From a virus (taxonomy: Duplodnaviria; Heunggongvirae; Uroviricota; Caudoviricetes): 13,352 nucleotides of DNA. Made by a program: the position numbers and the translations under genes. The stretch lies in IMG/VR virus record IMGVR_UViG_2690316028_000011, one strand, 5' to 3'. Position 1 is the first letter of the stretch, and each line of letters starts with the position of its first letter. Positions 2,495 to 10,044 of this stretch are shown here, piece by piece. Under the pieces are notes generated by a model. The model searched no databases. It saw only the letters and a program-made list of their open reading frames with translations, and was not told the origin of the DNA.

Positions 2495-2523
2495 TTGCTA
2501 TGGTTGGTTAATCATGCGTTAAT
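2495..2523 (+). promoter_or_regulatory. Candidate sigma70 promoter for cspI with long AT-rich 5' UTR
   Basis: TTGCTA (2495-2500), 17-bp spacer, GTTAAT (2518-2523; compare cspA -10 CTTAAT). Would give a 5' UTR of roughly 145 nt, typical of the cspA family. Sequence-pattern inference only. Confidence 0.3.
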
Positions 2524-2674
2524 GGTGTTCTGGTTTGTTACAAAATTATCTGAAGCAGTCATTGTTATAATTTTATTATTTGTACCTCTTGAGATTTCCT
2601 TGTTGGTTTTTCTCTCTGATATTTTTTTTCGGACCATTCTGCCCAAGGGCTAACTTCTTCAAAAGGTAATAATG

Positions 2675-2887
2675 ATGTCTAACAAAATGACTGGTTTAGT
2701 GAAATGGTTTAACCCTGAAAAAGGTTTTGGTTTCATCACGCCGAAAGATGGTAGCAAAGATGTGTTTGTCCATTTCTCAGCTATTCAGAGCAACGATTTC
2801 AAAACGTTAACTGAGAATCAGGAAGTCGAATTTGGTATTGAGAACGGACCTAAAGGCCCCGCGGCTGTTCATGTTGTGGCACTTTGA
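2675..2887 (+). CDS. cspI: Cold-shock protein, CspA family
   Basis: 70-aa product [38 protein letters not shown]... carries the RNP1 (KGFGFI) and RNP2 (VFVHF) motifs. SD AAAGG with cspA-like spacing. The six-frame ORF begins one codon earlier at 2672. Confidence 0.9.
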
Positions 2888-3086
2888 GGTAGAAAATATT
2901 ACAAACCATATTCACTTTAGATGCCCGTGTTGCCATGGTTCTCAGTATAGAACATCATCTTTTGATGTTTCTGACAGGAATCCTTTCGGGGCAAAATGTA
3001 TCTTTTGTAAATCAATGATGATTACATTTGATAATATTTCACAATACTTAAATGTTAGCCGTCTGTCGTTAGATTTAAGAAAGTGA
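2871..3086 (+). CDS. Possible small zinc-ribbon protein (71 aa) immediately downstream of and overlapping the cspI 3' end
   Basis: Product contains C-P-C-C ... (about 20 aa) ... C-I-F-C, a zinc-ribbon-like arrangement. The ORF stop at 3086 is followed 7 nt later by a strong intrinsic terminator. The RBS is weak and the ATG at 2871 is the only ATG start, so this stays low confidence. Confidence 0.25.
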
Positions 3087-3092
3087 AAATGA

Positions 3093-3114
3093 AGGCTCCT
3101 TCGGGAGCTTTTTT
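3093..3114 (+). terminator. Intrinsic terminator
   Basis: Stem GCTCC (3095-3099) / GGAGC (3104-3108) with TTCG tetraloop, followed by TTTTTT (3109-3114). Confidence 0.5.
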
Positions 3115-3158
3115 GCTTAGTGTCTAGTCGATGGATACTCACATATTACGGTAACATT

Positions 3159-3389
3159 ATGAAAAAAATAATAGTTTTTTTTAACTCTGAACCAGCAATG
3201 GTAGTGCCAGTGATGACCGGAGTTAACACCATCATGCGTGAATATCCAAATGGCGAAACAACACACCTCACTGTAATGGCTGCAGGGTTTCCATCTCTGA
3301 CCGGAGATCATAAAGTCATTTATGTAGCAGCGGATCGACATGTAACTTCAGAAGAAATTCTGGAAGCAGCAATGAGACTCTTGAATTGA
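3159..3389 (+). CDS. ynfN: Small prophage protein, YnfN/YmcE-like (partner gene upstream of gnsB)
   Basis: ORF 3120..3389. ATG at 3159 (MKKIIVFFNSEP...) gives 76 aa. An internal ATG at 3234 gives the 51-aa product MREYPNGETTHLTV..., which matches the length I recall for K-12 YnfN. The true start is uncertain and the RBS is weak for both. Confidence 0.5.
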   Translation: MKKIIVFFNSEPAMVVPVMTGVNTIMREYPNGETTHLTVMAAGFPSLTGDHKVIYVAADRHVTSEEILEAAMRLLN

Positions 3390-3561
3390 TTTGATTCTAA
3401 TGCATTGATAATAAATGATAATCATCTTTATCTGTTTGTGTGAAATTTAGACCGTCGTATGTTGATTATTGCGATGTTTCATCTTATCTTTTATACGTTT
3501 GCTCCATATAATTGACACTACTGTGTACCAGGAAAGTCATAACAGACTAAAAGAGGAAATG

Positions 3562-9469: not shown

Positions 9470-10044
9470 TGGCATTCAGAATGAGTGAACAACCACAGAC
9501 CATAAAAATTTATAATCTGCTGGCCGGAACTAATGAATTTATTGGTGAAGGTGACGCATATATTCCGCCTCATACAGGTCTGCCAGCAAACAGTACCGAT
9601 ATTGCACCGCCAGATATTCCGGCAGGCTTCGTGGCTGTTTTCAACAGTGATGAGGCATCGTGGCATCTCGTTGAAGATCATCGGGGAAAAACCGTCTATG
9701 ACGTGGCTTCCGGCGACGCGTTATTTATTTCTGAACTCGGTCCGTTACCGGAAAATGTTACCTGGTTATCGCCGGAAGGGGAGTTTCAGAAGTGGAACGG
9801 CACAGCCTGGGTGAAGGATACGGAAGCAGAAAAACTGTTCCGGATCCGGGAGGCGGAAGAAACAAAAAACAACCTGATGCAGGTAGCCAGTGAGCATATT
9901 GCGCCGCTTCAGGATGCTGCAGATCTGGAAATTGCAACGGAGGAAGAAATCTCGTTGCTGGAAGCATGGAAAAAGTATCGGGTATTGCTGAACCGTGTTG
10001 ATACGTCAACTGCACAGGATATTGAATGGCCAGCACTGCCGTAG
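9469..10044 (+). CDS. tfaQ: Tail fibre assembly protein (Tfa)
   Basis: 191-aa product [39 protein letters not shown]... matches the TfaQ/TfaR family. Start overlaps the stop of the upstream fibre gene (TAATG), indicating translational coupling. Confidence 0.9.

What the first reader, a model, noticed from the sequence alone, without database searches (positions are those of the whole stretch)
2871..3114. Possible unannotated zinc-ribbon small protein co-transcribed with cspI
A 71-aa reading frame starting at ATG 2871, overlapping the last codons of cspI, contains C-P-C-C and C-I-F-C spaced about 20 residues apart, as in a zinc ribbon. It ends 7 nt before a clean intrinsic terminator (3093-3114). 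A terminator placed about 200 nt after cspI rather than directly after it suggests the transcript carries something in between. It could be a small regulatory protein, or the region could instead be a structured 3' UTR.
Basis: seen in the sequence. Interest (0 to 1): 0.45.

Follow-up and report, generated by a model that had tools for sequence, protein, structure and literature searches.

The report
Known cold-shock small protein gene ynfQ
The reading frame after cspI is a real, conserved four-cysteine small-protein gene, but it is the already described and annotated E. coli gene ynfQ (a paralogue of ymcF), and it starts at an ATT codon at 2898, not at the ATG at 2871.

Summary
The gene is not unannotated. 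It is ynfQ (b4724 in K-12 Qin), annotated in RefSeq as "protein YnfQ / cold shock small protein YmcF", at window 2898-3086 (62 aa, ATT start).

- **Family:** it scores 112.6 bits against Pfam PF23641 (YmcF-like), and the profile begins exactly at the ATT.
- **Selection:** the 44-residue core is under strong purifying selection (pN/pS 0.13). The ligands are C9, C12, C34 and C37.
it has no Shine-Dalgarno sequence. K-12 and close relatives have a TAG directly after it, and it is usable in only 10 of 40 distinct csp-adjacent loci.
- **Real start:** it lies 10 nt after the cspI stop, and that stop overlaps the GAGG ribosome-binding site. In 48 of 48 loci with this layout the start is ATT or ATC. 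All 20 ATG starts lack an adjacent csp. This points to translational coupling to cspI.
- **Transcript:** a cspA-type thermoregulator leader (2517 onward) and a hairpin plus U6 terminator (3092-3114) bound a cspI-ynfQ bicistron.

Fold searches give only weak zinc-ribbon matches. The biochemical function remains unknown. Novelty: already known.

The parts
2517..2674 (+). cspI 5' leader of the cspA-thermoregulator type; approximate start of the cspI-ynfQ mRNA
   Evidence: Rfam RF01766 matches 2517-2933 with 109.8 bits against a gathering score of 78, full model 1-428. The transcription start is inferred from model position 1 and was not measured.
2675..2887 (+). cspI coding sequence (70 aa); stop codon TGA at 2885-2887
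   Evidence: RefSeq CDS in a 100% identical genome (L001 3076-3288 = window 2675-2887); ORF list.
2871..2897 (+).
   Evidence: No Shine-Dalgarno sequence within a useful distance (read). K-12 Qin and L004-L008 read ATG-TAG here. A usable ATG at this position occurs in only 10 of 40 distinct csp-adjacent loci. The Pfam profile starts at residue 10 of the 71-aa ORF.
2886..2889 (+). Shine-Dalgarno GAGG, overlapping the cspI stop codon and 8 nt upstream of the ATT start
   Evidence: Read directly from the sequence. A csp stop (TAA or TGA) followed by GG lies 9-10 nt before the start in 48 loci.
2898..3086 (+). ynfQ coding sequence: 62 aa, ATT start, TGA stop. A YmcF-like Cys4 small protein. Ligand codons: C9 2922-2924, C12 2931-2933, C34 2997-2999, C37 3006-3008
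   Evidence: RefSeq CDS (L001 3299-3487). K-12 b4724. Pfam PF23641 at 112.6 bits. Invariant columns. pN/pS 0.13 in the core. Distant homologues keep C9, C12, C34 and C37 only.
3092..3114 (+). Intrinsic terminator: 8-bp stem, UUCG loop, U6 tract. It ends the cspI-ynfQ bicistron
   Evidence: RNA fold -14.8 kcal/mol, z = -2.6. A hairpin plus T-run lies within about 12 nt of the stop in 41 of 70 distinct homologous loci, with different stem sequences. The ymcF paralogue has the same element with changed stem bases.
3089..3127 (+). Truncated ynfR: 12 codons here against 21 aa in K-12. The ORF reads through the terminator hairpin
   Evidence: RefSeq pseudo-CDS labelled 'too short'. K-12 ynfR is b4749. 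TAT in K-12 is TAG in the window. SPA-tagged YnfR rises after cold shock in K-12 (PMC6001520).

Best explanation
Window 2898-3086 (+) is ynfQ, the prophage (Qin/lambdoid) paralogue of chromosomal ymcF. It encodes a 62-aa protein. The first 44 residues form a compact domain with four conserved Cys ligands: C9-P-x-C12 and C34-I-F-C37. The last 18 residues are a variable tail.

**Shown here**
- The gene is the second cistron of the cspI mRNA. That mRNA has a cspA-type cold-responsive leader starting near 2517 and ends at the hairpin plus U6 at 3092-3114.
- The conserved start is ATT 2898. It lies 8 nt after a GAGG that overlaps the cspI stop codon.

**Inferred**
- Ribosomes that terminate on cspI reinitiate at the weak AUU 10 nt downstream. 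YnfQ is therefore made only when CspI is made, and in proportion to it. That means after cold shock and in other conditions that induce cspI.
- The domain binds one metal ion (Zn2+, or possibly Fe) in a zinc-ribbon or rubredoxin-like knuckle arrangement.
- Its role is most likely to bind a nucleic acid, the ribosome or a Csp partner during cold adaptation. No function has been demonstrated. This last step is a guess, at about 0.3.
For: **Identity**
- RefSeq annotation in 100% identical genomes and in K-12.
- Pfam PF23641 at 112.6 bits against a cut-off of 27, with profile position 1 at the ATT.
- 133 homologues, all named YmcF or cold-shock protein.

**Coding**
- pN/pS is 0.13 in the core and 0.51 in the tail, with synonymous sites near saturation.
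- 20 invariant columns.

**Start codon and coupling**
- At the conserved start position the codon is ATT in 54 loci, ATC in 4 and ATG in 20.
- A csp stop lies exactly 9-10 nt upstream in 48 loci, and all 48 have ATT or ATC.
- All 20 ATG starts lack an adjacent intact csp.
- The loci without an adjacent intact csp that have an ATG start fall into four apparently separate settings: Klebsiella/Raoultella with a csp remnant; Enterobacter/Leclercia/Silvania with AGGAG plus ATG; Atlantibacter; and a C. sedlakii csp-ymcF fusion.

**Transcript**
- Rfam cspA thermoregulator hit and terminator.
- cspI, ynfQ and ynfN are co-induced 6.5-, 5.9- and 5.8-fold by AZT, with similar SspA dependence (PMC11228462). 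cspI, ynfQ, cspG and ymcF are co-repressed by butanol (PMC11728337).

**Fold**
- The AF2 core has pLDDT 87-91.
- PMC13348028 models YnfQ as rubredoxin-like with a metal site.

**From my own knowledge:** D'Lima et al. 2017 reported cold induction of YmcF and YnfQ and their ATT start codons. The paper was not readable here. It is cited for AUU starts in PMC10191623.
Against: - No experiment was available here for metal content, for coupling, or for function.
- The link between start codon and csp adjacency rests on perhaps four to five independent evolutionary events, not on 68 independent loci.
- Pseudescherichia keeps ATT without an adjacent csp. It does have an overlapping 8-codon mini-ORF.
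- The terminator must leak. ynfR, which reads through it, is translated in K-12, and ynfN is co-induced. The bicistron is therefore not the only transcript.
Confidence: 0.95

Rival explanations
1. In this allele a 71-aa proteoform is made from ATG 2871, overlapping the end of cspI. It could be made instead of the 62-aa form or in addition to it.
For: The frame is open from ATG 2871 in this window and in some Citrobacter loci. Some database entries-aa versions (P0007, P0009, P0012, P0017).
Against: There is no Shine-Dalgarno sequence at a useful distance: the nearest AAGG is 14 nt upstream (read). A synonymous GTT to GTA change in cspI turns the next codon into TAG in K-12 Qin and in L004-L008. 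The ATG is usable in only 10 of 40 distinct loci. Its presence follows simply from the Asn/His-Val codons of the csp. Family conservation and the Pfam profile both start at the ATT.
Confidence: 0.05
2. The stretch 2888-3091 is a non-coding structured 3' UTR of cspI, and the ORF is fortuitous.
For: The 266-nt region folds somewhat better than shuffles (z = -2.7). The Rfam cspA model extends to 2933. In Salmonella an Rfam sRNA, STnc220, maps to the 3' end of the homologous gene.
Against: pN/pS is 0.13 with saturated synonymous sites. The frame and length (62 codons) are kept in 63 distinct genes. The Cys and Gly/Pro columns are invariant. Pfam E = 1e-32. From my own knowledge, the protein was detected by proteomics (D'Lima 2017). 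The fold z-score is largely explained by the terminator.
Confidence: 0.02
3. The Cys-rich core binds an iron-sulfur cluster of the Rieske type rather than a single Zn or Fe ion. The suggestion comes from [11 protein letters not shown] resembling Rieske box II, FKCPCHGSQY.
For: The profile search of PDB sequences puts cytochrome b6f Rieske subunits on top, at E = 0.075.
Against: The match is not significant and needs a one-residue deletion. There is no box I (C-x-H). In distant homologues H13 is replaced by Q, S, L or G, and C11 by K, T, H, R, S, Q, N or A. The same knuckle (CP-x-CHG-x-x-Y) occurs in a UvrA zinc finger.
Confidence: 0.03

Closest known systems
YmcF (b4723), E. coli K-12, downstream of cspG; Pfam PF23641 YmcF-like
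   Same: 62 aa and 66% identical. Same Cys4 core, same ATT start 10 nt after the csp stop with the stop overlapping the ribosome-binding site, and same hairpin plus T-run just after the stop.
   Different: ymcF is chromosomal and is followed by ymcE and gnsA. ynfQ is on a lambdoid prophage after the lysis genes and is followed by ynfR, ynfN and gnsB. The C-terminal 18 residues differ. YnfN is unrelated to YmcE.
YnfQ (b4724) of the K-12 Qin prophage
   Same: Same gene at the same position between cspI and ynfR/ynfN; about 95% protein identity (L008).
   Different: K-12 has a TAG directly after the upstream ATG, so no 71-aa frame exists there. K-12 ynfR is intact at 21 aa, while it is truncated here.
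Zinc-ribbon domains (TFIIE-alpha, TFIIB, NrdR, ribosomal zinc-ribbon proteins) and rubredoxin-like knuckles
   Same: Two CxxC knuckles 21 residues apart on short beta hairpins, and a small size. These are the top fold matches.
NCBIfam NF047912, ECs_2282 family putative zinc-binding protein (prophage small CxxC proteins)
   Same: Similar size and a CxxC...CxxC layout; weak hit at E = 0.0034.
   Different: The score is 17.2 against a cut-off of 37, so it is not a member.
AUU-initiated genes infC and pcnB (own knowledge)
   Same: Use of the rare AUU start codon.
   Different: In ynfQ/ymcF the AUU sits 10 nt after the stop of an upstream gene. That suggests reinitiation rather than IF3 autoregulation. 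This is inference.

Membership tests
Pfam PF23641 YmcF-like / 'cold shock small protein YmcF' | Profile HMM score above the gathering threshold over the full length | tested here: met
   112.6 bits against 27, E = 9.9e-33, profile positions 1-61 of 62 on residues 10-70 of the 71-aa ORF.
Pfam PF23641 YmcF-like / 'cold shock small protein YmcF' | Conserved CPxC...CIFC core | tested here: met
   C9, P10, C12 and C37 are invariant and C34 is at least 90% conserved across 31-41 sequences. All four are kept in the distant representatives read.
Pfam PF23641 YmcF-like / 'cold shock small protein YmcF' | Position immediately downstream of a cspA-family gene, with a non-AUG (ATT) start | tested here: met
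   cspI stops at 2887 and the ATT is at 2898. 48 loci share a 9-10 nt gap and an ATT or ATC start.
Pfam PF23641 YmcF-like / 'cold shock small protein YmcF' | Induction of the protein by cold shock | not testable with these tools
   Literature only. D'Lima 2017 was not readable here. PMC11228462 labels ynfQ 'cold shock induced'. The cspA thermoregulator leader is present.
Zinc ribbon / rubredoxin-like metal knuckle fold | Two CxxC knuckles on beta hairpins forming one tetrahedral site | tested here: inconclusive
Zinc ribbon / rubredoxin-like metal knuckle fold | Stoichiometric bound metal | not testable with these tools
   Needs purified protein and ICP-MS or spectroscopy.
NCBIfam NF047912 ECs_2282 putative zinc-binding protein | Score above the curated cut-off | tested here: not met
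   17.2 bits against 37.
Rieske [2Fe-2S] proteins | Box I C-x-H and box II C-x-x-H ligands | tested here: not met
   Only a box II-like string is present, at E = 0.075. H13 and C11 vary among homologues. There is no box I.
Rho-independent terminator | GC-rich hairpin directly followed by a U tract | tested here: met
   Positions 3092-3114, -14.8 kcal/mol. The position is conserved with varied stems in 41 of 70 loci. Termination efficiency was not tested.
Rfam RF01766 cspA thermoregulator (for the leader of the operon) | Covariance-model score above gathering | tested here: met
   109.8 bits against 78, positions 2517-2933.

The most novel reading that the evidence does not exclude
The rare AUU/AUC start of the YmcF/YnfQ family may be kept by selection only where the gene sits 9-10 nt behind a csp stop codon. 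That would mean obligatory termination-reinitiation, tying the amount of the Cys4 protein to that of its Csp partner.

Where the csp is lost or decays, the gene acquires ATG and its own ribosome-binding site, apparently in about four separate settings. In those lineages it also loses the cspA-type leader.

Together with the in-frame csp-ymcF fusion in Citrobacter sedlakii, this would point to a functional partnership between cold-shock-domain proteins and this small metal-binding protein. I do not know whether the discovery paper, which I could not read, already covers this.
Probability: 0.4. Interest if true: 0.35.

Novelty: already known. Interest (0 to 1): 0.12.

Why it matters
As a discovery it does not matter much. 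The gene has had a name, a b-number, a Pfam family and a proteomics paper since 2017-2018.

It is still a useful calibration case.

Two practical points remain. First, the biochemical function of YmcF and YnfQ is still unknown; ynfQ is listed among uncharacterised Qin genes in PMC11551758. Second, five of the seven E. coli phage records that carry the gene have no feature annotated at that position. The conserved layout of csp stop, ribosome-binding site and AUU gives a directly testable model for how it is expressed.

Tried and rejected
- **Primary paper.** I tried to read D'Lima et al. 2017 (PMC5647875 and its DOI), Cao & Slavoff 2020 (PMC7256928) and a further paper under the id PMC7212919, recalled from memory as a review of the E. 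coli small proteome. None is held. Statements about proteomic detection and mutational proof of the ATT start therefore rest on my memory of the abstract and on papers that cite it.
- **Name check.** VanOrsdel 2018 uses 'ynfQ' for a different 37-aa ORF near ydfJ/ydfK. The current K-12 record gives ynfQ = b4724 next to cspI.
- **Rieske box II resemblance**. Rejected, because H13 and C11 are not conserved in distant homologues.
- **ECs_2282 family**. Below cut-off.
- **PDB sequence search with the family profile.** Nothing significant.
- **Exhaustive profile search of 1.84 billion representatives.** Only 42 clusters, no link to a larger superfamily, and two spurious repeat proteins, P0146 and P0155.
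- **YnfN as a homologue of YmcE.** No similarity.
- **Non-coding 3' UTR.** Rejected by pN/pS.
- **Not done.** I did not count ATG-TTG against ATG-TAG alleles across all 2,149 E. coli records.

Full report
**1. What the sequence shows**

The window holds an open frame from ATG 2871 to TGA 3084-3086, 71 codons long. It overlaps the last 17 nt of cspI. By transfer from a 100% identical RefSeq genome, cspI is 2675-2887.

The frame contains C-P-C-C (codons at 2922-2933) and C-I-F-C (2997-3008). Six nucleotides after the stop there is a hairpin: stem 3092-3099 / 3104-3111, UUCG loop, followed by a T6 run. It folds at -14.8 kcal/mol, z = -2.6 against shuffles.

The consensus scanner listed this hairpin only on the minus strand. 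The probable reason is that extending the plus-strand stem uses up part of the T run. My own scan finds it on the plus strand.

**2. The gene is already annotated**

A megablast of 2600-3450 against complete E. coli genomes finds the region in 2,148 of 5,426 genomes. The annotated features under the match are ynfN, cspI and 'ynfQ/ymcF: cold shock small protein YmcF'.

- In the identical genome the CDS is L001 3299-3487, which is window 2898-3086: 62 aa with an ATT start.
- In K-12 MG1655 the same gene is ynfQ, b4724, inside the cryptic prophage Qin. The order there is cspI, ynfQ, ynfR, ynfN, gnsB.
- The chromosomal paralogue ymcF (b4723) sits in the same way after cspG, followed by ymcE and gnsA.
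- Pfam has a family for these proteins.

On the literature:

- The source paper is D'Lima et al. 2017, J Proteome Res 16:3722. I could not open it.
- From my own knowledge of its abstract, it reports YmcF and YnfQ as cold-shock-induced microproteins that start at ATT.
- Other papers cite it for AUU starts and for four new E. coli proteins.
- Later papers treat ynfQ as a named gene.
- One caution on names: VanOrsdel et al. 2018 used 'ynfQ' for a different 37-aa ORF. The current record is unambiguous.

**3. It is a real coding gene**

A word-indexed search returns 133 homologues, all in Enterobacterales: Escherichia, Citrobacter, Klebsiella, Salmonella, Kosakonia, Raoultella, Enterobacter, Kluyvera, Dickeya and others.

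The alignment shows a strongly conserved core, residues 6-41 ([37 protein letters not shown]). Twenty columns are invariant. The tail is variable.

Across 63 distinct 62-codon genes from 80 GTDB loci:

| Region | pN | pS | Ratio |
|---|---|---|---|
| Core | 0.10 | 0.78 | 0.13 |
| Tail | 0.387 | 0.758 | 0.51 |

They exclude a purely non-coding 3' UTR.

An exhaustive profile search of 1.84 billion representatives finds only 42 clusters, so the family is narrow. In the more distant members read, C11 and H13 vary while C9, C12, C34 and C37 are kept. This identifies the four ligands.

**4. The start is ATT 2898, not ATG 2871**

- GAGG (2886-2889) lies 8 nt before the ATT. Nothing comparable precedes ATG 2871.
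- At the conserved start position the codon is ATT in 54 loci, ATC in 4 and ATG in 20.
- In K-12 Qin, another E. coli, E. ruysiae and Shigella, a synonymous GTT to GTA change in cspI makes the next codon TAG.
- Among 40 distinct csp-adjacent loci, the codon nine positions upstream is a usable ATG in only 10. In the others it is ACG, AAC or GCG (26 loci), or ATG followed by an in-frame stop (4 loci).

**5. How it is expressed (partly inference)**

Rfam places a complete cspA-thermoregulator model at 2517-2933 (109.8 bits against 78). The terminator follows the ynfQ stop. Together they suggest a cold-responsive cspI-ynfQ bicistron of about 600 nt.

A hairpin plus T-run lies within about 12 nt of the stop in 41 of 70 distinct homologous loci. 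The stems differ (GGCTCC, GGCCCC, CAGGTCAG and others), so the structure is conserved rather than the sequence.

The csp stop lies exactly 9-10 nt before the start in 48 loci. It is always TAA or TGA followed by GG, so the stop is part of the ribosome-binding site. All 48 use ATT or ATC. All 20 ATG starts lack an adjacent intact csp.

The loci with an ATG start and no adjacent intact csp fall into four separate settings:

- Klebsiella/Raoultella, where only about 25 nt of the csp 3' end survive.
- Enterobacter/Leclercia/Silvania, at another chromosomal site with AGGAG plus ATG.
- Atlantibacter.
- Citrobacter sedlakii, where a 10-nt deletion fuses a degenerate csp in frame to ymcF.

Of seven sampled loci that lack an adjacent csp, none has a cspA-type leader.

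I read this as translational coupling by termination-reinitiation at a weak AUU. The number of independent events is small. Pseudescherichia is an exception: it keeps ATT without a csp, although an 8-codon mini-ORF overlaps the start.

Transcriptome data agree with co-expression. cspI, ynfQ and ynfN are induced 6.5-, 5.9- and 5.8-fold by AZT with similar SspA dependence. cspG, cspH, cspI, ymcF and ynfQ fall together in butanol.

**6. What the protein is**

AlphaFold2 with a 41-sequence alignment gives mean pLDDT 74. The core reaches 87-91 and the tail is below 50. The model has short strands and a C-terminal helix.

- Foldseek's best matches are TFIIE, zinc-ribbon ribosomal proteins, NrdR and PolC zinc modules, all at E of 0.39 or higher.

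The class is consistent, but no score is significant. A 2026 review models YnfQ as rubredoxin-like with a metal site.

A profile search of PDB sequences shows a local resemblance to Rieske box II (FKCPCHGSQY, E = 0.075) and to a UvrA zinc finger. I reject the Rieske reading because H13 and C11 vary among homologues and there is no box I. NCBIfam ECs_2282 is below its cut-off.

Neither the metal nor the function can be determined here. My best guess, at low confidence, is a nucleic-acid, ribosome or Csp-binding accessory of the cold response.

**7. Phage context**

The same module (lysin, Rz, csp, ynfQ, ynfN, gnsB) is present in lambdoid phages such as 2H10, mEp460, HannyBb, Tritos and PhiR63_1. 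Five of the seven E. coli phage records have no feature annotated under the match.

**8. Verdict**

Novelty: already known. Interest is low. The residual interest lies in the unknown function and in the pattern linking the start codon to csp adjacency.

Noticed in passing
window 3089-3127 (+): ynfR starts 2 nt after the ynfQ stop and is translated straight through the terminator hairpin. K-12 YnfR is MKAPSGAFLLGVYSMDTHILR, and its SPA-tagged form rises after cold shock (PMC6001520). In this window a TAT to TAG change cuts it to 12 codons. The N-terminus of YmcE ('RLPRGAFF') in the paralogous locus is likewise encoded by that locus's terminator hairpin.
   Followed up: partly
window 3159-3389 (+): ynfN is 76 aa here and in phage 2H10, but is annotated as 51 aa in K-12. 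The K-12 protein matches only the C-terminal 50 residues (94% identity). YnfN has no detectable similarity to YmcE, which occupies the equivalent position after ymcF.
   Followed up: partly
L010 2298-2689 (Citrobacter sedlakii NBRC 105722): A single ORF fuses a cold-shock-domain protein in frame to the YmcF homologue, which has ATG at its usual start position. The cold-shock domain has degenerate RNA-binding motifs (VKEFN, VFVPSS). It could be a decaying csp, a natural fusion or an assembly error.
   Followed up: partly
L021 2647-2726 (Salmonella enterica subsp. diarizonae): The Rfam sRNA family STnc220 (102 bits, gathering score 60) maps onto the last 43 nt of the YmcF homologue plus its terminator. 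The 3' end of the csp-ymcF mRNA may accumulate as a stable fragment in Salmonella.
   Followed up: no
L028 2482-2506 (Pseudescherichia sp.): Here the YmcF homologue keeps ATT-ATT at its start without an adjacent csp. An 8-codon mini-ORF (ATG...TAA, MKKGYYYY) overlaps the start and might replace the csp as the upstream coupling partner.
   Followed up: no
phage records H26-H32 (for example NC_049950.1 45050-45235): Five of the seven E. coli lambdoid phage records that encode an identical or near-identical YnfQ have no feature annotated at that position. The gene sits between the phage 'cold shock protein' and a ynfN-like ORF.
   Followed up: yes
window 3095-3108 (-): On the minus strand the same hairpin is followed by CTTCATTTTC. 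The scanner therefore calls it a terminator-like site on that strand too, and it may act in both directions.
   Followed up: no
window 9812-10010 (+): Full-length Rfam hit to IS009 (RF02111, 220.9 bits, gathering score 117), far from the finding.
   Followed up: no
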